Positions 37,024 through 63,533 of a stretch of 64,000 nucleotides of DNA are shown here, in pieces (position 1 is the stretch's first letter; the number at the start of each line of letters is the position of its first letter). This stretch comes from Pseudomonadales bacterium (GTDB lineage: Bacteria; Pseudomonadota; Gammaproteobacteria; Pseudomonadales; UBA7434): NCBI GenBank assembly GCA_965216795.1, contig OZ244196.1:1409044-1473043 (forward strand), in the 5' to 3' direction. The translations under genes and the position numbers were made by a program. Below the pieces are notes generated by a model. The model did no database searches. It was not told where the DNA came from and worked only from the letters and a program-made list of their open reading frames with translations.

Positions 37024-39885
37024 ATGGACAAGATTGCAATCCGCGGTGCCCGCACCCACAACCTGAAAAACATCGACCTCGACCTGCCCCGCGATAGCCT
37101 GATCGTCATCACTGGCCTGTCGGGCTCGGGCAAATCATCACTTGCCTTTGACACACTCTACGCTGAGGGCCAGCGCCGCTATGTCGAGTCGCTTTCGACC
37201 TATGCGCGGCAGTTCCTGTCGCTGATGGAAAAACCCGACGTCGATCATATTGAGGGACTCTCCCCGGCCATTTCCATCGAGCAGAAATCGACATCACACA
37301 ACCCGCGCTCCACCGTTGGCACCATCACCGAAATCTATGACTACCTGCGCCTGCTGTTCGCTCGCGCCGGCACGCCACAATGCCCCGAACACGGAATTGC
37401 CCTGGAAGCCCAAACGGTCAGCCAGATGGTCGACGCCATTCTTGCCCTCCCCGAGGGCAGCAAGCTGATGCTGCTGGCGCCGATCATCAAAGACCGTAAA
37501 GGCGAGCATCTCAAGCTCTTTGATAAACTCAAACAGGAAGGTTATGTCAGGGTACGGGTCGACGGAGAGGTCTACGATATCGACGAAATACCCGCGCTGA
37601 AAAAGAACAACAAACACAGCATCGATGTCGTTATTGACCGCTTCAAGGTGCGCGCGGACCTCAAGCAGCGCATTGCCGATTCACTCGAGACTACGCTCGA
37701 GCTGGCCGAGGGCGTCGCCTGCCTGGCCTTTATCGATGGCGAGCAGGATGACCTGCTGTTCTCGGCCAACTACGCCTGCCCGACCTGTGGCTACAACCTC
37801 AGCGAACTGGAACCTCGCCTGTTTTCATTCAACAACCCGGCTGGTGCCTGTGAAGTCTGCGACGGGCTGGGTATCAAGCAGTATTTCGATATCGACCGCA
37901 TTTTGCTGTACCCCGACTCCAGCTTGTCGGAGGGCGCGATTCGCGGCTGGGACAAGCGCAGCGTCTACTACTTCCATATGCTGACCTCGCTGGCCGACCA
38001 CTACGGTTTCGATATCGACAAGCCGTTCAACAAGCTCAGCAAGAAGCACCGCGAAATCATCCTCTATGGCAGTGATGAAAACATTGTCTTCTCTTACATC
38101 AACGATCGCGGCGATGTTTACAAACGCACCCATCCCTTCGAGGGCATCATCCCGAACATGGAGCGCCGTTATCGCGATACCCAGTCGCAAATGGTGCGCG
38201 ACGAGCTGACCAAATTCATCAGCACCCAGCCGTGCACGCAGTGCGAAGGCTCCCGATTGAAAGAGAGCGCCCGCCATGTGTTCGTCGACAGCAAAAACCT
38301 GCCGTCGCTGACCTGCCTGCCCATTGGCGAGGCGCACGACTACTTCAGTGCGCTAAATCTACCCGGGCGCCGCGGCAAGATCGCCGAGAAGATCGTGAAA
38401 GAAATCTGCGAGCGGCTGGAGTTCCTGGTCGATGTGGGCCTGAACTACCTGACGCTCGATCGCAATGCCGACAGCCTGTCGGGTGGCGAGGCCCAGCGCA
38501 TCCGGCTGGCCAGCCAGATAGGCGCCGGACTGGTAGGCGTGATGTATATTCTCGATGAACCCTCCATTGGTTTGCACCAGCGCGACAACGCGCGGCTATT
38601 GAAAACGCTGAACAAGCTGCGCGACCTGGGCAACACCGTCATCGTCGTAGAGCATGACGAGGATGCGATCCGCAGCGCCGACTATATTGTCGACATCGGC
38701 CCGGGCGCTGGCGTGCACGGCGGCCAGATCGTTGCCAAGGGCTCGTTGAACCAGATCACCCGCGCCAGCAAATCGGTCACCGGCCAGTACCTGTCGGGCA
38801 AGCAATGTATTGCCGTTCCCCAGAGGCGCCACGACATCGAGCCAGACCGGCAGATCGTGTTGCACGGCGCAACCGGCAACAACCTGCGCGATGTCGATAT
38901 CGCCATTCCACTGGGCCTGCTGACCTGTGTGACCGGCGTATCGGGCTCTGGCAAGTCCACGCTGATCAACAATACGCTCTACCCGGCGGCGGCCATCGCA
39001 CTCAATGGCGCCACCACGCTAAAGCCCGCTGCCTATGCCTCGATCGAGGGGCTGGACCAGCTCGACAAGTGTATCGACATCGACCAGAGCCCGATTGGCC
39101 GCACCCCTCGCTCCAACCCGGCCACCTACACCGGCATCTTTACACCGGTCCGTGAACTGTTTGCCGGCACACAGGAGGCGCGGGCTCGCGGTTATGCGCC
39201 CGGCCGCTTCAGTTTTAACGTGAAAGGCGGGCGCTGCGAGGCCTGCCAGGGCGATGGCGTCACCAAAGTAGAAATGCACTTTTTGCCAGATATCTATGTG
39301 CCCTGCGATGTCTGTAAGGGCAAACGCTATAACCGGGAGACGCTCGAGATTACCTACAAGGGAAAGAATATTTCAGAAGTTCTCGAGATGACGGCCGAAG
39401 ATGCGCTGCAGTTTTTCTCGGCGATTCCCAGTGTGGCGAAGAAGCTGCAAACGCTCATGGATGTTGGCCTGAGCTATATTCGACTCGGCCAAGCGGCGAC
39501 AACCCTGTCGGGCGGCGAGGCACAGCGGGTCAAACTGGCCAAAGAACTGTCGAAACGCGATACTGGCCGCACCCTGTACATTCTCGATGAACCAACCACA
39601 GGCCTGCACTTTGCCGATATCGCCCAGCTACTGAGCGTGCTACATCAACTGCGCGATCGCGGTAATACCATTGTGATCATCGAACACAATCTCGACGTCA
39701 TCAAAACTGCTGACTGGATCATCGACCTGGGCCCGGAAGGTGGCAGTGGTGGCGGCCAGATTATTGCCGAGGGGACGCCCGAGGCGGTCGCCAAGATCAA
39801 GGCCTCACATACGGGCCGGTTTTTGAAACCCATGCTGGCCACACCGAAAAAAGCCAAACGTCGCGCCAGGGCTGAAACCGCCTAG
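37024..39885 (+). CDS. uvrA: Excinuclease ABC subunit A
   Basis: Start trimmed to [24 protein letters not shown]. Two ABC modules ([18 protein letters not shown]) and zinc-finger CxxC pairs. Divergent from ssb, as in many gammaproteobacteria. Confidence 0.97.
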
Positions 39886-39942
39886 CGATATCAAGGCTTG
39901 CGGCCGGCCGCGCTGAAACCGGCCTGCCGATGTGCCAATCAC

Positions 39943-40950
39943 TCAGTTCCCGCCCCATACGAAAGCGTCGATCGAGTAGTAGGGCTCCTGGTTATAGCCA
40001 CGCCACATGTGCTTGGTGTAGCCTTTCCAGTCATTGTACCCCTGCGGCTCCCAGTAAAAGACGCCCAGGCCTCCGCGAGCGCGTGTCTGGTTCAAGGTTT
40101 CAAGCAGCGCATCGTAGGCGTACTGGACCGGCTCTGCATTCATACCAAACTCCACCAGCATGACATCCTTATTGTATTTTTGCTTGAGATAGCTAAGGTT
40201 GTCGGCATAGCTTGCGACGCCGTGGCCCCAATCCTGGTACGGATAGAGAGACAAGCCGATAATATCAAATATCGCGCCCTGACTTGCCAGGCCATCCAGA
40301 TTGGTCTCTAGTAATGCGCGATGGTCCCCACGCGGCAGGTGTACGATCGTCTTCACATCGGGGAATATCTCTTTTGCTCCCCGCCCTGCCTCGGTAATAA
40401 TTTTGGCGTAGTTGTAGTAGCCATTGACAGATACCTGGCCAATCGGCCAGAGCAGCCCATCGCTGGTTTCGTTACCAATCTGTACCCAGGTGGGCGTAAC
40501 GCCAGCATTGGCCAGGTGCGCAAGCGTTGCCCTGACATGCCATTTGGCAAGCAACCACACGGAGGATCCCCAGGCTTCCCAGCCCGCCGGCGGTGTCTGC
40601 TTTGCAGGGTCGGCAAATGAATCGCTGAAATGGAAGGCTATCATGACCTGCATGCCGGCATCTCGCGCATAGCTCGCCTTGGTAACCACATCAGCGATGT
40701 TGCTCCAGCCGTCAGACGGATTCACAAACACGCGCAGTCGCACAGCGTTCATCGAATGGTCTTTCAGGATATCGTGCAATGGCTTTGTATAGCCGTAGTC
40801 ATCCTTCCAGCTATAACCGGCTGCCTCCTGCTCGGTTTGCCAGCTGACGTCAGCACCCTTGATAAAGCCCTGCGATACAGCTGGCATCGATAGTGGAAGA
40901 ACGACCACCGCCACCAGTACAACAAAAACCTGCTTTAATAAACTGCCCAT
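39943..40950 (-). CDS. Arabinogalactan endo-beta-1,4-galactanase (GH53), secreted
   Basis: Start trimmed to MGSLLKQVFVVLVAVVVLPLSMPAVSQG (signal peptide). KGADVSW, NAVRLRVF, acid/base WVQIGNE, nucleophile VMLVEFG. Confidence 0.8.
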   Translation of the reverse strand: MGSLLKQVFVVLVAVVVLPLSMPAVSQGFIKGADVSWQTEQEAAGYSWKDDYGYTKPLHDILKDHSMNAVRLRVFVNPSDGWSNIADVVTKASYARDAGMQVMIAFHFSDSFADPAKQTPPAGWEAWGSSVWLLAKWHVRATLAHLANAGVTPTWVQIGNETSDGLLWPIGQVSVNGYYNYAKIITEAGRGAKEIFPDVKTIVHLPRGDHRALLETNLDGLASQGAIFDIIGLSLYPYQDWGHGVASYADNLSYLKQKYNKDVMLVEFGMNAEPVQYAYDALLETLNQTRARGGLGVFYWEPQGYNDWKGYTKHMWRGYNQEPYYSIDAFVWGGN

Positions 40951-41073
40951 GTCGTTCACGCTAACCTCTCTCGAGCGTTCGCACCGCGCGAATATCGGCG
41001 CCCAGCCCTCCACAATACTTCGACTCTGTTTTTATAGCTTCTATACTATATTTTTTTCAAGCAAACCAAAGAC

Positions 41074-42504
41074 CTATCGCTTCTTCAACGCCTTGACTTG
41101 TTTCTGCAATTCTGCAATCTGCGCGGCCTGGGTATCGAGCTGGTCTTGCTGACTCATCGTGTACAGGAAAAGCTCCTCGATCTTGGTCAAAAATGCTACG
41201 AACAGATCGGGCAGGTTGACGCCTTTCAGGCTCTGCACATCAGCCTCGGATGGAACGCCTGGCAAATGCTTGTTCTTCTTCACAAACGCTTCGACTTCAG
41301 CGAGGCTTTGCAACTTATAGTCAGGCTCAAAGACCTTATCGGCCCACTCGGTGATACCGACCAGCACGATATCCTCGGTAACAATGCCTCTCTCGACCCA
41401 TAGCAGGTAGTCGGCTATCGCCTCACTGTAATCAAACGCATGCAGCTGGCCATCTCGAGGACCGATGTGCATTGATCCACCGAGGGTCAACGTCACGTCA
41501 TCGACTTTGGTATCGGTATTGATGGACATCTGGATCGGGCCGGAATTTTCGTTTATCGTCACGTCATTGGCCGATAACCGAATCGTTGTATCTGAAGCCG
41601 AGCTTGCACTGAGCTGCGAGTTCGAAAAACCGAACGACAGATACTCGTGGCTCTGCGGGGAAAAGGCGAAGGGATTGGCATAATCGGGCTGCCATACGGT
41701 CGCGATCGCGTAGGTAGCAGGCATATTCTCGTGTGACCTGAAACTTGTACCGTATACGGGCGCATCGACTGTCGGCATATCGACCGCATAGGCAAAGGCA
41801 TCACCGGCGCCGTCACTGGCGGAGGAGATCTCAAAATCGTGGTCAGTTATTTGCGTGCCGATTGCCAGGTACCCGTCGATGGCGACCGCGTCACCAAATA
41901 CATGCCGACCGTCAACATCGTTGCCATCCCTGTCCGCAATGTTGTAGCCATAGGAATTATCTGACTGGTAGCCTCCCGATGTTTGCCCCCAGAAGACGAT
42001 CTCGTCTGAAATGGATAGTTTTGCGGCGTTGCTGTGCCCACCAAACAGATTCAGGTCACCCTTCACATCAACTTCAACCTTGCCATAACCATATGTGGGA
42101 AACCAGAAATGACCCGGCGCAGGGTAAATATCAATGACCGGAAACTTTTCGCAGTTATCGCCCGTCAACTTTGTCGCGTCCAATTTTCTGGACTCGGAAG
42201 AAGAATACTCGAAATCACAATCAGAAGCCGTATTGTAAAGACCTATTGAAACATCGGCCTGCGTGGAACTTGGCTGATAATCAGAAAAGTTATGCGGACC
42301 ATACAAGTGGGAGGAATGCCGACCCGCGAAATAGGGATTAAATATATCAAACTCATAGGTAGACGCATTGGAAGATACCTGTGCGTTCGCTGCAGCTGCA
42401 GCGCAATACAGGGAAACTCCCAGCAGAGAAGCCCCCATGGGCTTCCTCCACCTGGCGCCAGTCAACGCACTTGCAATACTGTATGTACTGTATGAATATT
42501 TCAT
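41074..42504 (-). CDS. Secreted hypothetical protein with a Tyr/Gly/Asp-rich beta-rich body and a C-terminal conserved module plus coiled coil
   Basis: I chose the start at 42504 (GAGG Shine-Dalgarno 8 nt upstream); the track ORF extends to 42585. Signal peptide ...MGASLLGVSLYCAAAAANA/QV. C-terminus WADKVFEPDYKLQSLAEVEAFVKKNKHLPGVPSEADV...KIEELFLYTMSQQDQLDTQAAQIAELQKQVKALKKR. Confidence 0.7.
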   Translation of the reverse strand: MKYSYSTYSIASALTGARWRKPMGASLLGVSLYCAAAAANAQVSSNASTYEFDIFNPYFAGRHSSHLYGPHNFSDYQPSSTQADVSIGLYNTASDCDFEYSSSESRKLDATKLTGDNCEKFPVIDIYPAPGHFWFPTYGYGKVEVDVKGDLNLFGGHSNAAKLSISDEIVFWGQTSGGYQSDNSYGYNIADRDGNDVDGRHVFGDAVAIDGYLAIGTQITDHDFEISSASDGAGDAFAYAVDMPTVDAPVYGTSFRSHENMPATYAIATVWQPDYANPFAFSPQSHEYLSFGFSNSQLSASSASDTTIRLSANDVTINENSGPIQMSINTDTKVDDVTLTLGGSMHIGPRDGQLHAFDYSEAIADYLLWVERGIVTEDIVLVGITEWADKVFEPDYKLQSLAEVEAFVKKNKHLPGVPSEADVQSLKGVNLPDLFVAFLTKIEELFLYTMSQQDQLDTQAAQIAELQKQVKALKKR

Positions 42505-42694
42505 AACAAGAACCTCATTTTTACGCGTCAGCTCGCGCACCGAACAATCGGGCACTGACGGATCTTTACAGGTGTATTTTTTCATGTAAGTACCATGGAC
42601 CTTCTGCCGTAATCGTTCACAAACCCGGCAAACCTTTTCAGTAATACTTTGCTAAAGCAGCCGCATTCTTCAGTTGACAAGCCTGTGCACACAC

Positions 42695-45600
42695 TCAAAG
42701 CCCATTGCCGCTGGAGAAGACAGCTCGCGTTGCGATCTCAACCTCTGAGGAGGTCCAATCTGCAACGTTGTAGGCCGTCAGTATGCCCGCGCTTCCGGCA
42801 TTAACGCCGTAGTTGGACACATCGACAATGAGCTTCCTGCCTGTATTCAGGTCAGCCCAGAACTGCATGCGACGCTTTTCATCATCAGACATCAGTCTCA
42901 GTAGTATTTCCTGGTCGAGCGGTTCGGCGTTACCGGCAAACGCACCACCGACAGGATCGAAGAATGCCTCCATATCGTAGAAAGCCTTGATGTTGGTACG
43001 TACACGGTAGGCCTCCGTGTCTGTGAGAGAGACCCAGGGCAGACGCAGGGTCCACTCTTCATTGATCACCGGCGCAACCCTGAAACCCGACGGATCATTC
43101 ATCGGGTCAGGAAACCGTTGCGATTGCGCAAACGCCATATCAAGCGCAGCGATAACGCCAGGGTCGGTCACGCCCGCAGTCGCTATCACCTGGTTTGCCA
43201 TCACATCTGACGGATAGGGCGTTTCCGAGTAGTGACGTATCCAGTACGAGGGCATCCAGCTGCTGGCAATACCGTTTGCACCCTGCGCCTGGTTCGATAG
43301 AAATTGTGTAACCACTGCGTCCTGGGCCACCGGCACCGTGTTGCCTGTCGTTGGATCCTCCATATCCCAACGATATTGCCCCGAATAGTTTTGAGAGGCC
43401 TCAAACCGATTGATGAGGTTCACGCCATTCGCAGCGGGCGGATCAGCCCTTAACCCATCGATGTACGTGTATTTGCTGAAGACGTCGACAACCTCATAGG
43501 CACGCAGGTTGGTGTTCGCACCGACACCCAACCAGGCTCTCTCCTCTGCCGTAAGATCAGACACCTCGATCAAGCCTTCACAAACATCACAACCGGCGTT
43601 CCTAACGCTCACCCGATAGAACATCTGCGAAGTATCTCGATAGGTCACCCTGAGTTCATAGTCGCCCGGTACGTCCCAGGTATACTCGAAGTTGTTACCC
43701 CATGCAGTGTGATCGGGTGTCGTCACAGGCGTACCGCTTGTCGCGATCCTGTAGACTTCAAACTTCAGGTCCTGCACCTGTTCGTCATAATCGACGCGCT
43801 TCGCCTGCAATCGCTCTGAGATGTACCACTCGGTACCGTCGTGCACGAACGTGTGAGGGTCGCTATCCAGCACGCCCCAATTGGTCTGGTCACCTGTGCG
43901 GAAGACATACTCGCGGACGTACCGAGATGCGTGTCGACCAGACCGCGCAAAGGTCTGGATGTCTTGAGGCCGGCTATCAAAGTAGTCGTTCAGGTAAATA
44001 TACGCACCATCGCCGCGGCCCTCCGAGAGAATATTGTTTTCACCTATAAAGCGAACACTGACGTCGAGAATCTCCTTTCCGGCGACGGGGATCCATTCAT
44101 TCGCAGCATTTTGGTAATAGGCAGTCAGGTCATAGTAGCCCCAGCCCTTAAAGTCGAATTCGGCAGAAAAATCTCCGGTAAAACTTTCTGCAGATACAAT
44201 ACCGTCGGGCATTTCCACTACGGTGCGCTCGATAACACCCAGGTGGTTCTCGTAAACGAGCTCCAGCTTGTACGGGTAATGGCCTTGCTCATTGAAAGGC
44301 ACGCCATGCAGCGTGTAGGTCACGTCTTCTTCATACAACGCTATGTGGTCCGGGCCACTGATGCTGCCGTAGAAACCCAGGCTGTTTTCCAGCCTGGGCT
44401 CCGCAGATATGGCCAGGTCCAGCACCCGAGAGCCCTGGGTGATCGTGATTTGGCCTGGCACGGCAGTCCAACCACTATCTGTGCCCGTCGGACTCATCGG
44501 GCCGACACCAAGTGCCTGGTACTCGTACCCCCTGTAAAGAGGAACATTGGTGGTGCCAAAATCCGCCCAGGAACGATGGGCCTGGTATGCGGAGATCATC
44601 TCATTGAGTGATGATTCACCCTCGGCGCCCGGCACATCTTTCCAGACCTCATAACCGTCACTCAACCTGAACTTCAATACCCCGCCACTACTTGTCGGAA
44701 TCGTAACCAGTTCGTCCGGATCCAGGCCCGCGATATACCTGGGTGTGGGGTTAGAACCAGCGCCGCCGTAGACGTAGGTATCACCGTAATTGCTGGCAAA
44801 TCCGTTTAGCAGGCTCCAATTTCGCCAGTTATGCAACAGCTCCATATTCAAACCCTCTCGCTGGCTATTGCGCTGGGTATTGGTTGCTGTGACCAGCTGC
44901 GGATGGTCACAGGGGTTGTAACCGAGATTGCGCAAGTTGCCGTCACGAAATTTTGTCTTGCACCAGGCGTACAAAGGGCCCGCGTCAGCGGTAGCGCGCA
45001 TCGGCAACTTCGGCACCCACGTCACCTCAACATGATTGGCGCCAGACTGCTCCAACTCCGGATAGCGCGGCTGCCAACCATTCCCGGTCGGCCAGGGCCG
45101 GATAACCGTCCCATGGACCTGGGAATCAAACCCCAGGAAAGGCGTATACCCACCAAAATCGATACTGGGGTTGACATGATAGAAGGACTCACCGGCAAAC
45201 CGCTGTATCGTCAGGTCGTGCAATCCGGAGATAGATAAATTTTCGCCAGGAACGTCGGTGGTCGCGATACGCACTGTCAAGGGCTCGCCCACGGGAATAC
45301 GTAAGCCCGAAAGGTCTTTTTCAAGATCACTGCTCTCCTGGTAAGAGATATGCCTGATAGTGTGCCCGCCACTGAGCAGGGTAACGCTGGTGTCCGGCGT
45401 GCCGACAATGCCCGCATCGGAACTTGTTATCACGCCAACACCAGGAATGTGTGCTTCTATGAAAGTTGCATCAGTAATCGCTATTTCTACGGTTACCGGT
45501 ATGATAAGGTCGTCTCGGTCAAGCCTGTCGCAGTAAAATTCATGCCAGAATTCGTCTTGATACTGTTCGCAGTTTCGACCAAAAACAGTGCACTCGCGTC

Positions 45601-46390
45601 TCGCCAGCCCCTCGGGCGAATGCGGGTAATCGGGGTCGAGATTACTGCTGCGGAAAATATCTATGGCGATGTTACCGAGGTATTTCCCCCAGTTTAGAAG
45701 CCCAAAAGCTACACGATTGTAGAAGTGACTGCAGTATTCGCTAACCTCTTCTGAATAGTTCAGGTCGGTCGTAACACCACCATTTTCGGCCCAGCCCACA
45801 CTGTTGTCGGTGTGTAAATTCAACGCCCACCTACCCCTCCATTTTTGCTGCGGGGTGTCAAAGTTGTACCAGTTCATCAGCTGCTTGGTTTCTCTTGAAT
45901 CCACATTGACATGACCCGTCAGAAAGGAGGGAACGGCACCCAGATCGAAATCACTGGTACCGGTGGCCTGGAACCAGGTCTGTGAAAGCATGTAACCTTG
46001 CTGCTCCGGCTCACTGGCCTCATGATCCAGGTAAGCCCAGTACAAAATGCGCTGCCGATTATCCTCAAACCCCTCGGCCGCTGCGGTATATACCCTCACA
46101 TCGATACGCGACACCCCTGGATTCCAGAAATTCAGCCCTACTATCCCGGGATTCATAAAATCAGTCAGCAATTCGGATGCGTTCACACTCCTATTAAGAC
46201 GGTAGTGCTCATCTGCGTTGATCTGCCCGGGAATTGGATTGATGATACCGTTGTTTATCTGCCCTGGAACTGGATTGACGAGACCGACACTCGAAACCGC
46301 CGAAGCCCCCACTGGCGGCAACAAAAAGGCAAGGGCAACCACCAGGGATATCGTCAAATGGTACAGTGAATACTGATATGTCTTATTCAT
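42695..46390 (-). CDS. Large secreted hypothetical protein (1231 aa), no recognisable family
   Basis: A single uninterrupted 3.7-kb ORF. Signal peptide MNKTYQYSLYHLTISLVVALAFLLPPVGASA/VS. Trp/Tyr/Asp/Asn-rich. A few beta-sandwich-like strands (YTWDVPGDYELRVTYRD). Confidence 0.8.
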   Translation of the reverse strand: MNKTYQYSLYHLTISLVVALAFLLPPVGASAVSSVGLVNPVPGQINNGIINPIPGQINADEHYRLNRSVNASELLTDFMNPGIVGLNFWNPGVSRIDVRVYTAAAEGFEDNRQRILYWAYLDHEASEPEQQGYMLSQTWFQATGTSDFDLGAVPSFLTGHVNVDSRETKQLMNWYNFDTPQQKWRGRWALNLHTDNSVGWAENGGVTTDLNYSEEVSEYCSHFYNRVAFGLLNWGKYLGNIAIDIFRSSNLDPDYPHSPEGLARRECTVFGRNCEQYQDEFWHEFYCDRLDRDDLIIPVTVEIAITDATFIEAHIPGVGVITSSDAGIVGTPDTSVTLLSGGHTIRHISYQESSDLEKDLSGLRIPVGEPLTVRIATTDVPGENLSISGLHDLTIQRFAGESFYHVNPSIDFGGYTPFLGFDSQVHGTVIRPWPTGNGWQPRYPELEQSGANHVEVTWVPKLPMRATADAGPLYAWCKTKFRDGNLRNLGYNPCDHPQLVTATNTQRNSQREGLNMELLHNWRNWSLLNGFASNYGDTYVYGGAGSNPTPRYIAGLDPDELVTIPTSSGGVLKFRLSDGYEVWKDVPGAEGESSLNEMISAYQAHRSWADFGTTNVPLYRGYEYQALGVGPMSPTGTDSGWTAVPGQITITQGSRVLDLAISAEPRLENSLGFYGSISGPDHIALYEEDVTYTLHGVPFNEQGHYPYKLELVYENHLGVIERTVVEMPDGIVSAESFTGDFSAEFDFKGWGYYDLTAYYQNAANEWIPVAGKEILDVSVRFIGENNILSEGRGDGAYIYLNDYFDSRPQDIQTFARSGRHASRYVREYVFRTGDQTNWGVLDSDPHTFVHDGTEWYISERLQAKRVDYDEQVQDLKFEVYRIATSGTPVTTPDHTAWGNNFEYTWDVPGDYELRVTYRDTSQMFYRVSVRNAGCDVCEGLIEVSDLTAEERAWLGVGANTNLRAYEVVDVFSKYTYIDGLRADPPAANGVNLINRFEASQNYSGQYRWDMEDPTTGNTVPVAQDAVVTQFLSNQAQGANGIASSWMPSYWIRHYSETPYPSDVMANQVIATAGVTDPGVIAALDMAFAQSQRFPDPMNDPSGFRVAPVINEEWTLRLPWVSLTDTEAYRVRTNIKAFYDMEAFFDPVGGAFAGNAEPLDQEILLRLMSDDEKRRMQFWADLNTGRKLIVDVSNYGVNAGSAGILTAYNVADWTSSEVEIATRAVFSSGNGL
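46211..46282 (-). repeat. Tandem 36-nt (12-aa) duplication inside the 1231-aa gene
   Basis: Read directly from the DNA: LVNPVPGQINNG followed by IINPIPGQINAD, immediately after the signal peptide. Confidence 0.8.
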
Positions 46391-46933
46391 GGATCTACCA
46401 CCCAGATCTCAGTCACGCCAGCCTGCAGTAGCGCGAACAACGTTGATCAAACGACGCCGGTCACCCGGCTCGAAACACCCGACTACAACCCAAGGAGCCG
46501 CAGCCACCCAAACTTCACATAATCAATAGACAGGCCGTCTTTTCTAGAGAAGCAATCAAGCGGAACCGGATGCCGGACTCACACCAGAAGCTTCAACAAC
46601 GGCGGAAAAAAGTACACTTCAATTAGCTAGTTGCAGATTCATACACGCCCGGTTTAGTCGTACGGATATTTTTAGATTATTAGCTTCCGTTATCGGTGCG
46701 AGGCCATGAAGGTTAACCGGGTCTCACCGACATCCACTACCAATATGCCGTCTAGCAAAATCGTGGGCACCTACATCCGTGTAGAATCTATCTGGATACT
46801 GCATTTCTTTTTATGATATATAATATTTATAGAAAAGCAACCATTTTTTTGTGTTCTCGATCCTTGAAAGTAGTTAAGGGTGGTTCACGAGCTGAAAGCG
46901 CAGCCAGCGGCGTACTCCCCGCGACCGTGGCTC

Positions 46934-47833
46934 TCAGCCTGCACGCAGCACGTCTATGAGTGCGCGCACGGCCAATGGCGCAAGATCGCCATAAGCATGG
47001 ACCGCACAAACCGCCGTCGTCCGTGGCGCGTAGCGGGGCAGCAGCAGCACCAGCTCACCATCATCCACCCTCGATTGCACGTAATGAGGCGGGACTGTCG
47101 CAAACCCCACGTCGGTCCACATCAGGGTCTCAACGGCACCCATCGTATTCGCGACCGCGGCAGGCTTCAGCGTGATTGTTCTACGCTCACCACCCGGCCC
47201 ATGCAGCAGGTAAGAGGCGTCGGGCAGCTCCCAGGCATGCGCAACATAGGGCCAACTGGCCACCTCGTCGACGTCGTGAATGCTGGCCTCACTCGCGCCC
47301 TGGCTGGCGAGAAACGCAGGTGTCGCATAAAAAAACCCGGCGACTTCACCCACCCGCACGGCTTGATAACCGCCGTATTTGACGGGCGCCACGCACAGCG
47401 CGATGTCGATCTGGTGCTCGATCAGGTCCACCTGCTCATCGTCGACAATGATTTCCGGCTGCAGTAATGGGTAGCGCTTCAACAGTTGCGCCAGTGCCGG
47501 CGCGACCAGCTCGTCGAACACGGCCTGCGGCGCCAATACCCGCAGAATACCCGCTGGCGTTGCAAGCTGCTCACTGACTTCTTCCAACGCAATGGTCGAT
47601 AAATCACGCAGGGAAACACAGCGCATGAAGAACTGCTCACCCACAGGTGTCAGGCTCTGGCGACGGGTTGATCGTGCAAGCAATCGGGTACCCAGGTCGG
47701 CCTCAAGCCCACGCAAATGCTCACCAACGACCGAACGCCCTACCCCCAGCGCTTCGGCCGCCGCTGTTATCGATCCCGCCTCAACCACGGCAATAAATGC
47801 CTTGATACGCGTTGCCAGTAATTCGATTTGCAC
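46934..47833 (-). CDS. LysR family transcriptional regulator
   Basis: N-terminal wHTH FIAVVEAGSITAAAEALGVGRSVVGEHLRGLE. 299 aa. Divergent from the hydrolase gene at 48027. Confidence 0.9.
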   Translation of the reverse strand: MQIELLATRIKAFIAVVEAGSITAAAEALGVGRSVVGEHLRGLEADLGTRLLARSTRRQSLTPVGEQFFMRCVSLRDLSTIALEEVSEQLATPAGILRVLAPQAVFDELVAPALAQLLKRYPLLQPEIIVDDEQVDLIEHQIDIALCVAPVKYGGYQAVRVGEVAGFFYATPAFLASQGASEASIHDVDEVASWPYVAHAWELPDASYLLHGPGGERRTITLKPAAVANTMGAVETLMWTDVGFATVPPHYVQSRVDDGELVLLLPRYAPRTTAVCAVHAYGDLAPLAVRALIDVLRAG

Positions 47834-48026
47834 GGTTTTCCCCTACAAGCCTAACGCTTGCACCCCATTGATCATATCAATAGGAGCTGAGACCATAATC
47901 ACAGCAGGAATTCCATTGAGTATGCGTCGGCGCCGCTCGCCAGCAGTACGCCTGCGTTGAGGCCGCGCTGCGCAAACCCATGATTTTGATAAGGAAGCGT
48001 CTGCCAACGAACCAGAGGCTCACACC

Positions 48027-48818
48027 ATGAATACGGCATTACACAACGGTAAACATTTCACGCTGGTACACGCGAGCTGGATGGCCGCCTGGGAATGGCA
48101 AGCGGTTGCCAGTTCACTGCACGCTGCAGGCCATCGCTGCCTTGCGGTCGATTTGCCGGGGCGCGGCAGCAACCCCGCGAGCATCCCACAGGGGCAGCTC
48201 GCACTCGATGACTACGTCGACAGTATCGCCAGGCAATTGCTGCCGCTGGGCGAAAAGACCATTGTGGTTGCCCACGGCGGTAGCGGTATTGTGGCCTCCC
48301 AGCTCGCCGAGCACTGCCCCGAGCGCATCGAAGCAGCGGTTTACCTGGCCGGCCTGATGCTGGGAGACGGTGCTTCACTCGCCGCCACCTGCAGTGGCAT
48401 TACGACCTCGGCGGTGGTCAATAACCTGCGTTTTTCAGGTGATGGCCTGACGGTCGAACTGGATCGCGGTATCGCTCACCAGGCATTCGCAGCCGATGTC
48501 GATAAGGCGCACTTTGAAAAACTGACTCACGAGCTCACGGCCGAGCCCACGGCATTGATGAAAACAACGCTGTCGCTCAGCGATTCGCGCTATGGCACAG
48601 TGCCCCGCTACTACATTGAGTGCACCCGCGACAACGTGGTGCCCATTGGGTTCCAGCAGGCGATGGCCATGGCACAGACGCTTGAAGCGTACTACACAAT
48701 GGATTCAAGCCACGCACCCATGCTTTCGCAACCTGATGAGCTCTGCGATATTCTCGAAGATATTGCCAAGCACCGGTCGCATTCTGGCACTGCCGACAAC
48801 CGCCGCACGGCGCGCTAA
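48027..48818 (+). CDS. Alpha/beta fold hydrolase (esterase-like)
   Basis: HFTLVHASWMAAWEWQ opening, as in methylesterase-type alpha/beta hydrolases. Nucleophile-elbow-like VVAHGGSGIV. 263 aa. Confidence 0.75.
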   Translation: MNTALHNGKHFTLVHASWMAAWEWQAVASSLHAAGHRCLAVDLPGRGSNPASIPQGQLALDDYVDSIARQLLPLGEKTIVVAHGGSGIVASQLAEHCPERIEAAVYLAGLMLGDGASLAATCSGITTSAVVNNLRFSGDGLTVELDRGIAHQAFAADVDKAHFEKLTHELTAEPTALMKTTLSLSDSRYGTVPRYYIECTRDNVVPIGFQQAMAMAQTLEAYYTMDSSHAPMLSQPDELCDILEDIAKHRSHSGTADNRRTAR

Positions 48819-48867
48819 GCTTGCACGGACCTCGACCGCCACCGGCGGCCAGGAGCCTTTCGGGCAT

Positions 48868-48897
48868 AAAAAAACCGGGCATGAATGCCCGGTTTTT
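48868..48897. terminator. Bidirectional rho-independent terminator between the hydrolase gene and rplQ
   Basis: AAAAAAA, CCGGGCAT, GA, ATGCCCGG, TTTTT: an 8-bp perfect stem flanked by an A-run and a T-run. Confidence 0.75.
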
Positions 48898-48926
48898 CGT
48901 ATTTGCAGCGCGTCTGGCGCCGAGAG

Positions 48927-49340
48927 TTAATCCTCGTCATCAAAATCATCGAAATCATCATCGAAATCGAAGCTATCAGCCTGCGGACGATCGACCAGCT
49001 CGACGTAGGCCATAGGCGCCTTGTCGCCGGTGCGATAGCCGCACTTGAGTATGCGCACATAGCCGCCAGGGCGCGACTCATAGCGAGGGCCAATTTCGCT
49101 AAACAGCTTGCCAACGGCAGCCTTGTCGCGCATGCGCGAAAAGGCGAGCCGGCGGTTGGCGACGCTGTCCTGCTTGGCCAGCGTAATCAACGGCTCGGCG
49201 TGACGACGGAGCTCTTTTGCTTTTGGCAGCGTGGTGCGAATGAGTTCGTGCTCGATCAACGAGCAGGTCATATTGCGAAACATCGCCTTGCGGTGCGATG
49301 AGTTGCGGTTTAGCTGTCTGCCACTGTGACGATGGCGCAT
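48927..49340 (-). CDS. rplQ: 50S ribosomal protein L17 (with an acidic Asp/Phe C-terminal tail)
   Basis: [24 protein letters not shown] is the canonical L17 opening. Last gene of the alpha operon. Confidence 0.97.
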
Positions 49341-49385: not shown

Positions 49386-50387
49386 CTAGGCGAGGATCTT
49401 GTCGTCGCTGCGCAGGCTGGCCGGCGGCCAGTTATCCAGTCGCAGACCCAGTGACAGCCCACGTGAGGCCAGCACATCCTTGATTTCGGTCAGCGACTTC
49501 TTGCCCAGGTTTGGCGTCTTGAGCAGCTCGACTTCGGTTCGCTGCACCAGGTCGCCAATGTAGTAAATGTTCTCTGCCTTCAGGCAGTTTGCCGAACGCA
49601 CGGTCAGCTCCAGATCGTCAACCGGGCGCAGCAGAATCGGGTCGATCTCCTCTTCCTGCTTGGCTGGCTCCAGCTCTTTCTCGCCTTCAAGGTCGACAAA
49701 CACGGCCAGCTGCTGCTGCAGAATCGTCGCGGCGCGACGGATCGCCTCCTCAGAGTCCAGCGTACCGTTGGTCTCCAGGTCGATCACCAGCTTGTCGAGG
49801 TCGGTGCGCTGCTCTACCCGCGCACTATCGACAACATAGGATACGCGACGAACCGGGCTGTAAGAGGCATCGAGCTGTAAGCGGCCGATCGCCTTGGTTT
49901 CTTCTTCATCGGTCTCACGCGCGTCGACAGGCTGGTAGCCGCGACCGGTTGAGACAGTCAGCTTCATCGACAGCTGGCCAGCATCGTTCAAATGCGCAAT
50001 CACGTGCTCGGGGTTCTTGATCTCCACCTCGTGATCAGTCTGGATATCGCCCGCAGTGACCACACCTGGGCCCTGCTTGCTCAACGTCAGCACTGTCGAC
50101 TCACGGTCATTCAGCACAATCGCCACGCCCTTCAGGTTGAGCAGGATCTCAATAACGTCTTCCTGCACACCCTCAATCGCGCTGTACTCGTGCAGCACGC
50201 CATCAATTTCTACTTCGCTGATCGCTGCGCCTGGCATGGAAGAGAGCAGGATCCGACGCAGGGCATTGCCCAGCGTGTGGCCAAAACCGCGCTCCAATGG
50301 CTCGAGCGTAATTTTGGCTCGCGTTTCGCTTACTTCATCAACTTCGATTAAACGGGGAGTGAGAAATTCGCTGCCTGCATTAAGCAT
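49386..50387 (-). CDS. rpoA: DNA-directed RNA polymerase subunit alpha
   Basis: 333 aa. [23 protein letters not shown]. Confidence 0.98.
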
Positions 50388-53620: not shown

Positions 53621-54076
53621 TTACTCGGGAACAGCTTCGACGCTGCCACCCGCTGCTTCGATTGCCGCTCGCGCGCCTTTTGACACACGCAAGCCCTCAA
53701 CCTTCACAGCCTTGTTCAATTCACCCTGCAGGAATACCTTCGCCTGCAGGCTGCGTGCGCCAATCAGGCCCGCTGCCTTCAGCGTTTCCAGGTTGACGAC
53801 ATCACCATCTACCAAACCCAGGGAGCCAGTGCGAACCTGCGCAGAAAATCGACCAATGCGCGATGTAAAACCGTATTTTGGCAGGCGCTTCTGCAGGGGC
53901 ATCTGGCCGCCCTCGAAACCCGGGCGAACACGGCCACCCGAACGCGACTTCTGGCCCTTGTGGCCGCGGCCACAGGTCTTGCCCAAACCGCTGCCAATAC
54001 CGCGACCGACGCGCTTGGCGCGGCTACGCTGGCCTTCGCCGGCGGCAATCGTATTGAGGCGCATTTTTTCGCTCAT
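53621..54076 (-). CDS. rplO: 50S ribosomal protein L15
   Basis: [11 protein letters not shown]...[13 protein letters not shown]. The start may be the second ATG at 54064. Confidence 0.95.
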
Positions 54077-54081
54077 GATGT

Positions 54082-54267
54082 CTATTCCTCGATGCTCACC
54101 AGGTAATTGACGCGGTTAATCATGCCGCGCACGCTGGGCGTATCTTCTACTTCAACCACATGGCCAATTCGACGCAGTCCAAGACCACGCAAACAGGCTT
54201 TATGCGACTTCAGGCGACCCGAACTACTGCGAGTCTGCTTGACCTTGATGGTTTTATCAGCCGCCAT
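54082..54267 (-). CDS. rpmD: 50S ribosomal protein L30
   Basis: 61 aa. [30 protein letters not shown]. Confidence 0.97.
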
Positions 54268-54318
54268 GATGTTGTAACTCCAGTTTCAATCTGTCTTCAA
54301 TCAGCCTGTACAGGGGCG

Positions 54319-54828
54319 CTAGGCGCGAACCTCTGCAACAGATTTGCCACGCTTGGCCGCGATGTCTTCGGGCGAACGCATCTCGGCAAGGCCCTTGATC
54401 GTCGCGCGAACCACATTAACGGGGTTAGTTGAGCCGTAACACTTGGCCAGTACATTGTGAACGCCTGCGACTTCGAGTACCGCACGCATGGCGCCGCCAG
54501 CGATAACACCCGTACCTTCAGATGCAGGCTGCATGTAGACCTTGGATGCGCCATGCACTGCACGTACCGGGTACTGCAAGGTGCCGTCCGCAAGCTCTAC
54601 GCTGACCATATTGCGACGCGCTGCTTCCATCGCTTTCTGGATAGCGACCGGCACTTCACGCGCTTTTCCACGACCGAAGCCCACTTTGCCGTTACCGTCG
54701 CCAACGACAGTCAGCGCCGTGAAACCGAAAATGCGGCCACCCTTCACTACCTTCGCAACGCGATTGACCTGCACAAGCTTCTCTTGCAGGCCTTCTTCGT
54801 TATCTCTGTTTTGATCGTTAAACGCCAT
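54319..54828 (-). CDS. rpsE: 30S ribosomal protein S5
   Basis: [29 protein letters not shown]. Confidence 0.98.
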
Positions 54829-54869
54829 TTTCCAGCTACCTTAGAACAGCTATCTCATTAACAGCCAAT

Positions 54870-55220
54870 TTAAAATTGCAGGCCTGCTTCGCGCGCGGCA
54901 TCTGCCAGCGCCTTTACCCGGCCATGAAACTTGTAACCGCTGCGATCGAAAGACACATTTTCGACGCCAGCCGCCTTTGCACGCTCGGCAATCAGCGCGC
55001 CTACTTTTTGCGCCGCCTCAACGTTACCAGTCGCGCCTTCACGGATCGACTTATCCAGAGTTGAAGCCGATGCCAAAACGCGATCGCCCGCCGCAGAAAT
55101 CACCTGCGCGTAGATGTGGCGCGGTGTGCGGTTAACAGTGAGACGCTCGCTGCCCAGCTCGCGAATCTTGACGCGGCTGCGTTTTGCTCGTCGCAATCGT
55201 GCCTGTTTCTTGTCGCTCAT
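54870..55220 (-). CDS. rplR: 50S ribosomal protein L18
   Basis: [16 protein letters not shown] ... [21 protein letters not shown]. Confidence 0.98.
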
Positions 55221-55280
55221 CGTTAAAACCTGCTGTCTTTTACCAATCTATAAAATAGGGCTATCCAGAACCTGGCTAAC

Positions 55281-55814
55281 CTACTTTTTCTTCGCCTCTT
55301 TGCGGCGAACATACTCGTCAGCGTATCGTACGCCCTTGCCTTTATAGGGCTCGGGCGGCCGAAATGCGCGAATCTCTGCTGCCGCCTGGCCAACTTGCTG
55401 CTTGTCGATACCCTTCAGCACGATTTCGGTTTGACTAGGCGTCTCTGCTGTCACGCCTTCTGGCAACTCGTAATCGATAGGGTGCGAGAAGCCCAGCGTC
55501 AGGTTAAGCGACTTACCAGAGGCCTTGGCCCTGTAGCCAACGCCATTAAGTTCGAGTTTCTTCTCGAAACCGTCAACCACGCCAGTCACCATATTGTTAA
55601 CCAGCGAGCGGAAAGTGCCTGAAAGCGCCAGCGACTGCTTGCTCTTGTCGCGCGCCGCGAACTTCAGCTCACCATCGTCGAGGCTGACCTCAACGAGCCG
55701 GTGCACATCAAGCTCCAGAGTGCCTTTCCCGCCCTTAACCGCAAGATGCTGCCCATCGATTTTGACTTCAACGCCCGATGGGACTGCTACTGGATTATTT
55801 GCTATTCGAGACAT
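55281..55814 (-). CDS. rplF: 50S ribosomal protein L6
   Basis: [22 protein letters not shown]. Confidence 0.98.
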
Positions 55815-55885
55815 ATCTAATCTCTCAACAACCTTAAAAACTTCTACCTAACGACTTAACTTGCAAAAACCGGCCTTGGCCAGGA

Positions 55886-56281
55886 TTAAAAAACCGTGCA
55901 GAGTACTTCGCCACCTACACCCGCTTCGCGAGCCTGCTTGTCGGTCATAACCCCTTTATTTGTCGATACGACTGCAACGCCGAGGCCGCCGCGCACACGC
56001 GGAAGATCGTCCTTGCCCGCATAGGCACGCAAGCCAGGCCGGCTGGCGCGATGCAGCTCCTCAATGACTGGACGCCCATCGAAGTACTTCAGGTCAATCG
56101 AGAGTTCGGGCTTACCGTCGTTGTCATCGACGCGAACCGACTCCACGAAGCCTTCCTGAGCCAGCACATTGGCAATTGCGACCTTGGTCTTTGACGAAGG
56201 CATCGACACCGAGACTTTCTCGGCCATCTGCGCATTGCGAATGCGTGCCAGCATATCGGCGATGGGATCCTGCATGCTCAT
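55886..56281 (-). CDS. rpsH: 30S ribosomal protein S8
   Basis: [20 protein letters not shown]. Confidence 0.98.
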
Positions 56282-56338
56282 AGGCGTTCTCTTCTACGTA
56301 TCTCTTCTATTCTGCTAGTTCAGTTTCTATTGCGGCAC

Positions 56339-56644: not shown

Positions 56645-56664
56645 CGTTTAAGCCTCAGTACCTG

Positions 56665-57204: not shown

Positions 57205-57254
57205 CGTCTTGTTCCAGTCGTATCTGCTATTACCGGCCCCGGGCCAGTTGGGAG

Positions 57255-57563: not shown

Positions 57564-57627
57564 AACTTGCTGCTCGTAGGCAATCTTGTGTTTAGTTCTT
57601 TCCAGCCAGCTGAAATTGCCAGCCCCC

Positions 57628-58359: not shown

Positions 58360-58379
58360 CGTCTAGTAGCCTTTGATAG

Positions 58380-63012: not shown

Positions 63013-63533
<521 letters not shown>

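What the first reader, a model, noticed from the sequence alone, without database searches (positions are those of the whole stretch)
39886..46933. Low-G+C block of three secreted-protein genes (GH53 plus two orphans) inserted between uvrA and a LysR gene
Three co-directional minus-strand genes (42695-46390, 41074-42504, 39943-40950) each carry a Sec-type signal peptide and are separated by 190 and 123 nt. A 543-nt AT-rich gene-free stretch precedes them. Only the last gene is recognisable, as a GH53 endo-beta-1,4-galactanase. I cannot place the 1231-aa and 476-aa proteins in any characterised family. Composition shifts visibly. My hand counts on single 60-nt lines give 32/60 (41701-41760) and 28/60 (44101-44160) G+C inside the block. 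Outside it the counts are 35/60 in uvrA (38401-38460), 33/60 in the LysR gene (47401-47460) and 42/60 in pxpC (24301-24360). A/T-ending codons are common in the block. This pattern suggests horizontal acquisition of an extracellular module. It might be a novel glycan (galactan/pectin side-chain) binding and degrading apparatus or a surface fibre apparatus. No integrase, tRNA or IS marks the borders.
Basis: partly seen in the sequence, partly recalled or inferred. Interest (0 to 1): 0.7.

Follow-up and report, generated by a model that had tools for sequence, protein, structure and literature searches.

The report
Acquired three-gene secreted galactanase module
A marine gammaproteobacterium carries a foreign three-gene block, a known galactan-cutting enzyme (GH53) plus two proteins from unnamed families. 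The same trio recurs, sometimes fused into one protein, in sugar-degrading gene clusters of Bacteroidota and in one cluster beside a type II secretion system. It is therefore an undescribed accessory system for extracellular glycan breakdown.

Summary
Three intact minus-strand genes with Sec-type leaders lie at 39943-46390, behind a 543-nt AT-rich spacer. The block has 52.8% G+C against 58.6% for the rest of the window, a modest but real drop.

The block sits in the uvrA|rplQ gap. That gap is about 115 nt in the nearest relative, and uvrA-to-rpoA spans 0.6-5.4 kb in 21 other proteobacterial loci against 9.5 kb here.

The last gene is a complete GH53 endo-beta-1,4-galactanase. The "orphans" have relatives but no name.
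- The 1231-aa protein belongs to a rare family ("F1231") of about 100 clusters. Most members are Bacteroidota T9SS cargo, and 19 of 101 are fused to GH53.
- The 476-aa protein shares only its C-terminal ~150 aa ("CTD476") with more than 750 clusters, those named being Bacteroidota.
- In 10 of 12 metagenomic F1231 loci a CTD476 gene lies next to the F1231 gene (directly abutting it in 9), often inside SusC/SusD loci with GH2 or galK/galT/galE.
- One locus (L104) has a T2SS cluster, then partner, F1231, a separate GH53, GH2 and galactose catabolism genes.

The trio is therefore a conserved functional module acquired horizontally. The window copies lack T9SS tails. The molecular roles of the two accessory proteins remain inferred: a beta-sandwich scaffold and a fibre-like partner.

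The parts
42695..46390 (-). orf1231: a secreted 1231-aa protein and member of an unnamed family, called 'F1231' here. It has no T9SS C-terminal domain.
   Evidence: ORF and translation. No Pfam, NCBIfam or PDB sequence hit. The word-indexed search found only the protein itself. The exhaustive HMMER search found 102 representative clusters, 62 of them at E<=1e-30, at 30-37% identity.
46298..46390 (-). Predicted Sec signal peptide of orf1231 (residues 1-31, cleavage motif ASA|VS).
   Evidence: Read from the translation. No predictor was run.
42791..45523 (-). Conserved F1231 core (residues ~290-1200). It consists of several beta-sandwich domains plus alpha/beta regions. The most conserved polar residues are D422, H426, Q506, R507, Q510, D557, D559, E560, E623 and D626.
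   Evidence: Alignments A2 and A3. AlphaFold2 model with pLDDT 82.8 and pTM 0.85. Foldseek returns only generic multi-Ig/macroglobulin-domain arrays at TM ~0.1.
41074..42504 (-). orf476: a secreted 476-aa partner protein. Residues 1-330 have no detectable relatives.
   Evidence: The leader ends in ANA|QV.
41077..41517 (-). Conserved C-terminal domain, called 'CTD476' here (residues ~330-476). It carries the motif YLLWVE.GIVTED...W.D.VF..DY.L.SL.EVE.F...N.HLPG.PS...G......KIEEL.LY and then a heptad-rich tail.
   Evidence: Alignments A1 and A4. 750 clusters matched at E<=1e-3. No Pfam, NCBIfam or PDB hit.
39943..40950 (-). GH53 endo-beta-1,4-galactanase, 335 aa including its leader, with no T9SS C-terminal domain.
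   Evidence: PF07745 at E=1.5e-66. Full-length match to 6GP5/6GPA (deposited as arabinogalactan endo-beta-1,4-galactanase) at E=1e-59, with both Glu motifs aligned (GNET; VEFGM against CEIGM). The nearest relatives are 53-59% identical.
46391..46933 (.). A 543-nt AT-rich non-coding stretch upstream of orf1231, which presumably holds the promoter or regulatory region.
   Evidence: 48.6% G+C. Sequence. The consensus scan found no sigma-70 site here, so the promoter is inferred rather than located.
39886..39942 (.). A 57-nt gap between the convergent uvrA and GH53 genes; this is the left border of the block.
37024..39885 (+). uvrA, the left flank and a conserved anchor gene.
   Evidence: Translation. 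Its relatives are 63-86% identical.
46934..48818 (.). A LysR regulator gene (46934-47833, minus strand) and a divergent alpha/beta-hydrolase gene (48027-48818, plus strand). Both have host-like G+C (~0.60). Both are absent from this site in relatives, so they probably arrived in a separate, older insertion.
   Evidence: Pfam hits, composition, tblastn against 80 loci.
48927..49340 (-). rplQ, the right-hand conserved anchor gene, followed by rpoA at 49386-50387.
   Evidence: Pfam hits and synteny.

Best explanation
The block is a horizontally acquired, self-contained extracellular module for attacking beta-1,4-galactan. It landed in the variable uvrA|rplQ gap of a Cellvibrionales-like marine gammaproteobacterium.

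Proposed working, with each step marked:
1. All three proteins are exported by Sec (leaders seen in the sequence). They probably cross the outer membrane by a type II secretion system (inferred).
2. GH53 cuts galactan endo-wise into oligosaccharides. This is the established activity of the family, and both catalytic Glu motifs are kept.
3. orf1231 is a large multi-beta-sandwich protein that works physically together with the hydrolase. I infer this because relatives carry GH53 covalently attached in 19 of 101 clusters, and others carry GH30, GDPD, a metallophosphoesterase or a SASA esterase domain (GH30 and metallophosphoesterase downstream of the core like GH53, GDPD further downstream, SASA upstream). 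Its likeliest role is a substrate-binding or enzyme-presenting scaffold.
4. orf476 is its dedicated partner. Its conserved C-terminal domain, which ends in a heptad-rich helix, probably oligomerises. It may tether or assemble the scaffold at the cell surface (inferred from the tight gene pairing).

The module is commonest in Bacteroidota, where the scaffold and the GH53 carry T9SS sorting domains. The window copies lack these domains, as do the scaffold copies of a tail-less sub-lineage with higher-G+C-type composition (L103, L104; GH53 checked only in L104).
For: Synteny.
- In L001 (uvrA 86% identical) uvrA and rplQ are about 115 nt apart, separated by a shared terminator.
- In 21 loci the uvrA-to-rpoA distance is 0.57-5.4 kb; here it is 9.5 kb.
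- No block gene was found in any of the 80 loci.

Composition. The block has 52.8% G+C against 58.6% for the rest of the window.

Phyletic pattern.
- The nearest GH53 relatives by NJ tree are three tail-less proteins of unassigned origin; the sister clade is T9SS-tailed Bacteroidota proteins such as that of Reichenbachiella.
- 55 of 101 F1231 relatives carry a T9SS C-terminal domain.
- The named CTD476 relatives are Bacteroidota.

Co-occurrence.
- 10 of 12 metagenomic F1231 loci have a CTD476 ORF in the same gene run as the F1231 gene, with 0-70 nt between ORFs in most; it directly abuts the F1231 gene in 9 and lies about 0.5 kb upstream in L098. Two of the rest are short or cut contigs; in L097 nothing abuts the upstream side and the contig ends inside the F1231 gene.
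- Four of the 12 encode F1231-GH53 fusions.
- The same holds in L103 and L104.

Context. Neighbours include SusC/SusD/SusE, a hybrid two-component regulator, GH2, GH16, GH43, GH123, and LacI with galK/galT/galE. L104 has a T2SS cluster, then partner, F1231, a separate GH53, GH2 and DGOK.

Integrity.
- The window orf1231 keeps all invariant and near-invariant family positions.
- The GH53 catalytic motifs are intact.

Structure. The confident AF2 model is mainly beta-sandwich arrays, and no catalytic fold was recognised.
Against: - No biochemical or expression evidence exists.
- The 64-kb window holds no sugar transporter, beta-galactosidase or T2SS gene among those annotated, so downstream use of the products is unseen.
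- The window GH53 is only 22-35% identical to the GH53 domains fused to F1231 relatives. The pairing here is therefore an independent recruitment, not simple inheritance of a split fusion.
- Many invariant acidic, His and Arg residues in the F1231 core would also fit an enzyme.
- The direction of transfer and the immediate donor are unresolved. The NJ trees are star-like, and the best relatives are only 34-59% identical.
- Codon usage is only mildly atypical.
- Operon status is unknown; the spacers are 190 and 123 nt.
Confidence: 0.75

Rival explanations
1. orf1231 is itself a new catalytic carbohydrate-active enzyme (a new GH, PL or CE family) that acts beside GH53 on a composite substrate, rather than a non-catalytic scaffold.
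For: Invariant or near-invariant polar residues are concentrated in one well-modelled alpha/beta region of ~220 residues: D422, H426, Q506, R507, Q510, D557, D559, E560, E623 and D626. Multi-catalytic fusions are common among CAZymes (general knowledge). Fusion partners include several different hydrolases.
Confidence: 0.25
2. The block encodes a surface fibre or adhesin apparatus unrelated to glycan catabolism, and GH53 is merely a neighbour.
For: CTD476 also ends 459-1741-aa proteins without signal peptides on IMG/VR contigs; these look like phage tail fibres. Several CTD476 relatives carry fibre-type repeats. The F1231 model is an array of Ig-like domains, as in adhesins.
Against: GH53 is covalently fused to F1231 in 19 of 101 clusters, and once it is inserted inside the F1231 region. 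Loci sit in SusC/SusD PULs with GH2, GH16, GH43 and Leloir-pathway genes. No GenBank phage carries CTD476, and no IMG/VR contig carries F1231.
Confidence: 0.1
3. The block is native to this lineage, and its lower G+C only reflects the amino-acid composition or expression level of secreted proteins. Alternatively, it is an assembly chimera.
For: GC3 and codon-likelihood z-scores lie within the window range for GH53 and are only mildly low for the other two genes. Ribosomal-protein genes in the same window also have lower GC3. No mobility genes or repeats mark the borders.
Against: The block is absent from the syntenic gap in all 80 loci examined. Relatives are almost all Bacteroidota T9SS cargo. 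The intergenic spacers are also AT-rich, at 46-49% G+C. The three proteins are recorded on one 3.4-Mb contig in NCBI and ENA. Their G+C is intermediate, and the T9SS tails are missing, which is not what a pasted-in Bacteroidota fragment would show.
Confidence: 0.05

Closest known systems
Galactan utilisation system of Bacteroides thetaiotaomicron (BT4667-BT4673: GH2, the GH53 enzyme BT4668, a surface glycan-binding protein, SusD, SusC and a hybrid two-component regulator). The locus composition, and the identification of PDB 6GP5/6GPA as BT4668, are from my own knowledge.
   Same: Both use a GH53 endo-galactanase of the same subtype; the window enzyme matches 6GP5 at E=1e-59 over its full length. 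Bacteroidota relatives of the module sit in SusC/SusD loci with GH2.
   Different: The window has no SusC/SusD, no lipoprotein glycan-binding protein and no regulator of that type. Instead it has two unnamed proteins (F1231 and the CTD476 partner). As far as I recall, neither protein type is part of the described Bacteroides locus; I did not test this.
T9SS type-A cargo enzymes of Bacteroidota (multi-domain secreted CAZymes ending in the Por_Secre_tail domain PF18962/TIGR04183).
   Same: 55 of 101 F1231 relatives and the sister clade of GH53 relatives carry this sorting domain.
   Different: None of the three window proteins has it, and the host is a gammaproteobacterium. In locus L104 the same triad lies beside a T2SS gene cluster.
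Cohesin-dockerin style enzyme display (cellulosomes) and other scaffold-plus-anchor systems. This is a functional analogy only.
   Same: A large non-catalytic-looking scaffold carries or accompanies interchangeable catalytic domains and is encoded next to a dedicated partner.
   Different: There is no sequence or fold similarity to cohesin, dockerin or SLH modules. No interaction has been shown.
C-terminal trimerisation / intramolecular-chaperone domains of phage tail fibres and tailspikes (for example Pfam Peptidase_S74, PF13884).
   Same: CTD476 sits at the extreme C-terminus and ends in a heptad-rich helix. It also closes proteins that look like phage tail fibres on IMG/VR contigs.
   Different: There is no Pfam match to PF13884 or any other family at E<=1 and no PDB match. 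The Ser in the 'W-S-D' position is Ala in the window protein, so self-cleavage is not expected there.
Alpha-2-macroglobulin / complement-type arrays of macroglobulin domains.
   Same: These are the top Foldseek matches (CD109, the Salmonella and E. coli alpha-2-macroglobulins, C3/C4/C5) at E~1e-9 over ~800 aligned columns.
   Different: TM-scores are ~0.1, so only the beta-sandwich repeats match. No helical thioester domain appears in the model. No CxEQ thioester motif exists: the Cys residues are at 220, 267, 274, 287, 477, 494, 934 and 937.

Membership tests
Glycoside hydrolase family 53 (39943-40950) | Sequence match to the family model above the curated threshold. | tested here: met
   PF07745 scores 225 bits against a cut-off of 24, E=1.5e-66.
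Glycoside hydrolase family 53 (39943-40950) | Full-length similarity to a solved GH53 (beta/alpha)8 barrel. | tested here: met
   6GP5/6GPA at E=1e-59, with query residues 26-330 aligned to chain residues 40-349.
Glycoside hydrolase family 53 (39943-40950) | Two catalytic glutamates of clan GH-A: the acid/base in the 'NE' motif and the nucleophile near the end of strand 7. | tested here: met
   WVQIGNET aligns with WVQVGNET, and VMLVEFGM aligns with VMICEIGM of 6GP5. Assigning the catalytic roles to these motifs rests on general knowledge of GH53.
Glycoside hydrolase family 53 (39943-40950) | Endo-beta-1,4-galactanase activity. | not testable with these tools
   Needs an enzyme assay.
Horizontally acquired genomic island | Absent from the syntenic site in related genomes. 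| tested here: met
   uvrA and rplQ are about 115 nt apart in L001. The block is absent from all 80 loci. Spacing is 0.57-5.4 kb elsewhere and 9.5 kb here.
Horizontally acquired genomic island | Composition departs from the host's. | tested here: met
   52.8% against 58.6% G+C. Gene G+C z-scores run from -1.75 to -3.17. GC3 and codon bias are only mildly atypical.
Horizontally acquired genomic island | Nearest relatives lie in a different phylum. | tested here: inconclusive
   Most relatives are Bacteroidota, marked by T9SS tails and SusC/SusD neighbours. But the very nearest GH53 relatives in the NJ tree are three tail-less proteins of unassigned origin, and a tail-less F1231 sub-lineage also exists. 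The immediate donor is therefore unresolved.
Horizontally acquired genomic island | Mobility hallmarks: integrase, IS element, tRNA target or flanking direct repeats. | tested here: not met
   No tRNA and no border repeats. No integrase or transposase ORF is apparent between uvrA and rplQ; of the genes in that gap, Pfam was run only on the three block genes, LysR and the hydrolase.
Bacteroidota polysaccharide utilisation locus (PUL) | An adjacent SusC-like/SusD-like gene pair. | tested here: not met
   None was seen among the window genes annotated. The pair is present next to relatives in L090, L094, L095 and L096.
T9SS type-A cargo | C-terminal sorting domain (PF18962 / TIGR04183). | tested here: not met
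   Absent from all three window proteins. Present in 55 of 101 F1231 relatives and in the GH53 sister clade.
Tail-fibre intramolecular chaperone (Peptidase_S74) | Match to PF13884 and the catalytic Ser-Lys dyad. | tested here: not met
   No Pfam hit at E<=1 for orf476, or at E<=0.1 for 10 relatives. The candidate Ser position is Ala in the window protein.
Alpha-2-macroglobulin / thioester proteins | Thioester domain with a CxEQ motif, plus global fold similarity. | tested here: not met
   TM ~0.1. No CxEQ motif in the sequence.

The most novel reading that the evidence does not exclude
F1231 and its CTD476 partner form a previously unrecognised two-protein system for holding or displaying secreted hydrolases (GH53, GH30, GDPD, phosphoesterases, esterases) outside the cell. 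The system is conserved across Bacteroidota, where it is T9SS-dependent, and in tail-less copies (one beside a T2SS cluster, one in this gammaproteobacterium) that have swapped the secretion route. Alternatively, the F1231 core is the founding member of a new CAZyme or carbohydrate-binding family.
Probability: 0.35. Interest if true: 0.8.

Novelty: new variant of a known kind. Interest (0 to 1): 0.62.

Why it matters
GH53 galactanases and PULs are well studied. This work shows that a large protein family of ~900 conserved residues, and a very widespread C-terminal domain, are missing from Pfam, NCBIfam and the PDB sequence set.

Both are genetically welded to GH53 and to other secreted hydrolases. 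The link shows as adjacency in 10 of 12 loci and as covalent fusion in 19 of 101 clusters.

- This gives CAZyme biochemists two concrete, testable targets. The confident AF2 model and the conserved residues offer a starting point for experiments.
- It suggests a new way in which Bacteroidota organise T9SS cargo at the surface.
- It may be a natural example of one extracellular module moving between phyla while exchanging its secretion signal: T9SS tail present in most Bacteroidota-type copies, absent in the tail-less copies (one beside a T2SS cluster) and in the window; the direction of transfer is unresolved.

Tried and rejected
- Single-sequence AlphaFold2 of mature orf1231 failed (pLDDT 28). 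The alignment-based run succeeded.
- The word-indexed homology search wrongly suggested that orf1231 is unique. The exhaustive HMMER search corrected this.
- Looking up contigs for P0001 returned nothing.
- A cryptic GH53-like region inside F1231 was considered because of a secondary HMM hit. I rejected it: i-E values were 28-37, and only noise appeared across 70 core sequences.
- No internal repeats in orf1231, and no similarity between orf1231 and orf476.
- No plasmid copy of F1231. No GenBank phage carries CTD476. No IMG/VR contig carries F1231.
- Profile searches of the PDB with F1231 hit only the T9SS tails of relatives. Searches with CTD476 gave only coiled-coil noise at E>0.5.
- Literature searches found no description of either family.


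Full report
**Observation.** The window holds three intact, co-directional minus-strand ORFs at 42695-46390 (1231 aa), 41074-42504 (476 aa) and 39943-40950 (335 aa). They are separated by 190 and 123 nt and preceded by a 543-nt non-coding stretch. Each product begins with a basic n-region, a hydrophobic core of 13-17 residues and a small-residue cleavage motif (ASA|VS, ANA|QV, AVS|QG). I read these from the sequence; no predictor was available.

The block has 52.8% G+C against 58.6% for the rest of the window, and its spacers have 46-49%. Against 53 other window genes the gene G+C z-scores are -1.75, -3.17 and -2.05. GC3 (-0.65, -1.87, -1.28) and synonymous-codon likelihood (-0.56, -1.60, -1.34) are only mildly low. 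The compositional signal is real but modest, as expected for an old or partly adapted acquisition. There is no tRNA, Rfam element or border repeat.

**Host and insertion site.** Flanking genes are uvrA (37024-39885, plus strand) on one side. On the other side lie a LysR gene (46934-47833), a divergent alpha/beta-hydrolase gene (48027-48818), and then rplQ-rpoA-rpsD...secY. The rpoA protein falls in a 90%-identity cluster whose named members are Cellvibrionales/"Pseudomonadales" MAGs. The host is therefore a marine gammaproteobacterium of that group; the block proteins are recorded on a 3.4-Mb contig.

A scan of species-representative genomes with uvrA returned 80 loci.
- In the nearest (L001, 86% identical) uvrA and rplQ are about 115 nt apart and share a terminator.
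- In 21 loci uvrA is followed by rpoA within 0.57-5.4 kb, against 9.5 kb here.
- None of the 80 loci contains a relative of any block gene, and none has the LysR or hydrolase gene at this site.
- A further relative (L099) has unrelated genes after rplQ.

The uvrA|rplQ gap is thus an insertion hotspot. The low-G+C block (39886-46933) is one insertion. The LysR/hydrolase pair, with host-like G+C, is probably a separate one.

**GH53.** The last gene is a complete GH53 (PF07745, E=1.5e-66). It aligns end to end with 6GP5/6GPA, deposited as an arabinogalactan endo-beta-1,4-galactanase (Bacteroides thetaiotaomicron BT4668, from my own knowledge; E=1e-59), and keeps both catalytic Glu motifs. Its best relatives are 53-59% identical. 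They form a small clade of Bacteroidota enzymes with T9SS sorting domains (for example Reichenbachiella agariperforans, which sits in a SusC/SusD/SusE-GH53 locus) plus a few copies without the tail.

**The 1231-aa protein is not an orphan.** It has no Pfam, NCBIfam or PDB sequence hit, and a word-indexed search found only the protein itself. An exhaustive HMMER scan of 1.84 billion representatives found 102 clusters, 62 of them at E<=1e-30. They are 30-37% identical over residues ~290-1200. I call this family F1231.
- Of 101 relatives, 55 end in a T9SS sorting domain and 19 carry a GH53 domain. In 18 the GH53 lies just C-terminal to the F1231 core, and in one (P0247) it is inserted within it.
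- Other members carry GH30_2, GDPD, a metallophosphoesterase or a SASA esterase domain.
- The window protein keeps every invariant and near-invariant family position. It has the most high-G+C-type amino-acid composition of the family. Its first ~300 residues are unique.

With a 38-sequence alignment AlphaFold2 gave a confident model (pLDDT 82.8, pTM 0.85). The model consists of several beta-sandwich domains plus alpha/beta regions. Foldseek against the PDB and BFVD returned only multi-Ig/macroglobulin-type arrays at TM ~0.1. A profile search of PDB sequences hit only the T9SS tails of relatives. The conserved polar residues (D422, H426, Q506, R507, Q510, D557, D559, E560, E623, D626) cluster in one alpha/beta region (model residues ~120-350). 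That region is a candidate ligand-binding or active site.

**The 476-aa protein.** Only its C-terminal ~150 residues have relatives. There are 750 clusters at E<=1e-3, and those that carry an organism name are Bacteroidota. They are either unannotated or mislabelled as "TMF family" or "bZIP" because of the terminal heptad-rich helix. This domain, which I call CTD476, has no Pfam, NCBIfam or PDB match. It sits at the extreme C-terminus of proteins with highly variable N-termini, some of them with fibre-type repeats. On IMG/VR contigs it also ends 459-1741-aa proteins without leaders that look like phage tail fibres. No GenBank phage has it.

**The trio is a conserved module.** A metagenome scan with the F1231 alignment returned 12 loci. 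I searched them with HMMs built here and mapped their genes.
- A CTD476 ORF lies in the same gene run as the F1231 gene in 10 loci, with 0-70 nt between ORFs in most. It directly abuts the F1231 gene in 9 and lies about 0.5 kb upstream in L098. It is upstream in 8 loci and downstream in 2.
- Two of the other loci are short or cut contigs. In L097 the upstream side has no CTD476 gene and the contig ends inside the F1231 gene.
- In 4 loci GH53 is fused to F1231.
- These loci have 31-49% G+C. They contain SusC/SusD/SusE, a hybrid two-component regulator, GH2, GH16, GH43, GH123 and, in L092, LacI plus galK/galT/galE.

Two members of a clade without T9SS tails gave further loci. L103 has a CTD476 fragment followed by F1231. 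L104 has 54% G+C and this gene order: T2SS gspE/F/G/H/.../K, CTD476 partner (552 aa), F1231, a separate GH53, GH2, GntR, a gluconolactonase-family (SGL) gene, a solute symporter, a short-chain dehydrogenase and DGOK.

That is the window's triad in a galactose-catabolic, T2SS-adjacent setting. CTD476 genes elsewhere also abut T9SS cargo genes, namely the GDPD loci L081, L082 and L100, and L101. The window GH53 is only 22-35% identical to the fused GH53 domains. GH53 has therefore been coupled to F1231 more than once, which strengthens the functional link.

**Interpretation.**
- Shown: the genes are intact, the block is inserted relative to relatives, its composition is atypical, GH53 is complete, and the three components are linked across many lineages by adjacency and fusion.
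- Inferred: the block is a horizontally acquired extracellular galactan-attacking module. GH53 is the catalytic part. orf1231 is a large scaffold or binding protein that works in cis or in complex with the hydrolase. orf476 is a dedicated, probably oligomeric, fibre-like partner. Export beyond the periplasm is probably by T2SS.

The module appears to be most diverse in Bacteroidota. The immediate donor is unresolved: it could be a tail-less lineage like that of L104, whose G+C resembles the block's. The main rival is that the F1231 core is itself a new enzyme.

**Limits.** Only a 64-kb window was available, so the rest of the genome (T2SS, galactose uptake and catabolism) was not examined. The trees are neighbour-joining only. 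The adjacency statistics rest on 14 loci from about 8 independent lineages. No structure was obtained for orf476. There are no domain-level fold searches, no expression data and no biochemical data.

Noticed in passing
window 41077-41517; loci L081, L082, L100, L101, L108, L113, L117, L119, L127: The CTD476 domain is widespread (750 clusters matched) yet absent from Pfam, NCBIfam and the PDB sequence set. Its genes typically lie 4-50 nt from genes for T9SS-tailed secreted proteins, not only F1231 but also GDPD-locus proteins. It may be a general partner of T9SS cargo.
   Followed up: partly
L122-L126, L129-L133 (IMG/VR contigs): The core of CTD476 also ends 459-1741-aa proteins without signal peptides on low-G+C viral contigs; these look like tail fibres. 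No match exists in 50,697 GenBank phage records. The viral nature of these contigs was not verified.
   Followed up: partly
L104 1-19894 (ENA ERZ25069412 ctg849688): A locus of proteobacterial type: a complete T2SS gene cluster lies directly beside the CTD476 partner, F1231, a separate GH53 and GH2, followed by GntR, SGL, SSF and DGOK genes. It suggests a T2SS-linked version of the module.
   Followed up: partly
P0277, P0291, P0256, P0258, P0282, P0333: F1231 family members are also fused to GH30_2, GDPD, a metallophosphoesterase and a SASA esterase. P0282 is a 4457-aa protein with SASA, F1231, GH53 and GDPD in that order. The GH53-plus-GDPD combination hints at a substrate that contains both galactan and glycerophosphate.
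   Followed up: no
window 39886-48926: The uvrA|rplQ gap is an insertion hotspot across Proteobacteria: uvrA-to-rpoA spacing is 0.57-5.4 kb in 21 loci and 9.5 kb here. The LysR gene (46934-47833) and the divergent alpha/beta-hydrolase gene (48027-48818) have host-like G+C, yet they are also absent from this site in all 80 loci.
   Followed up: yes
window 42439-42504: The public annotation of the 476-aa protein (P0002, 454 aa) starts 22 codons downstream of the ATG at 42504. That ATG has a GAGG 8 nt upstream and gives a better n-region for the signal peptide. A further in-frame ATG at 42585 (503 aa) lacks an obvious ribosome-binding site.
   Followed up: partly
window 54000-64000: The ribosomal-protein operon genes have lower G+C (0.53-0.58) and lower GC3 (0.57-0.65) than the window average. 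Low GC3 alone is therefore not diagnostic of foreign DNA here.
   Followed up: no
L084 7623-11005 and L085: The closest GH53 relatives without a T9SS tail (P0126, 56% identical) occur as two GH53 genes flanking a 209-aa protein with a hydrophobic C-terminal anchor-like tail. The contig has 43% G+C and a TonB-dependent receptor lacking the CarboxypepD_reg domain seen in the SusC-like receptors here, and no F1231 or CTD476.
   Followed up: no
L102 308-7566: P0005 carries two CTD476 domains in tandem. It follows an 1886-aa protein with no Pfam hit; this may be another cargo-partner pair of unknown type.
   Followed up: no
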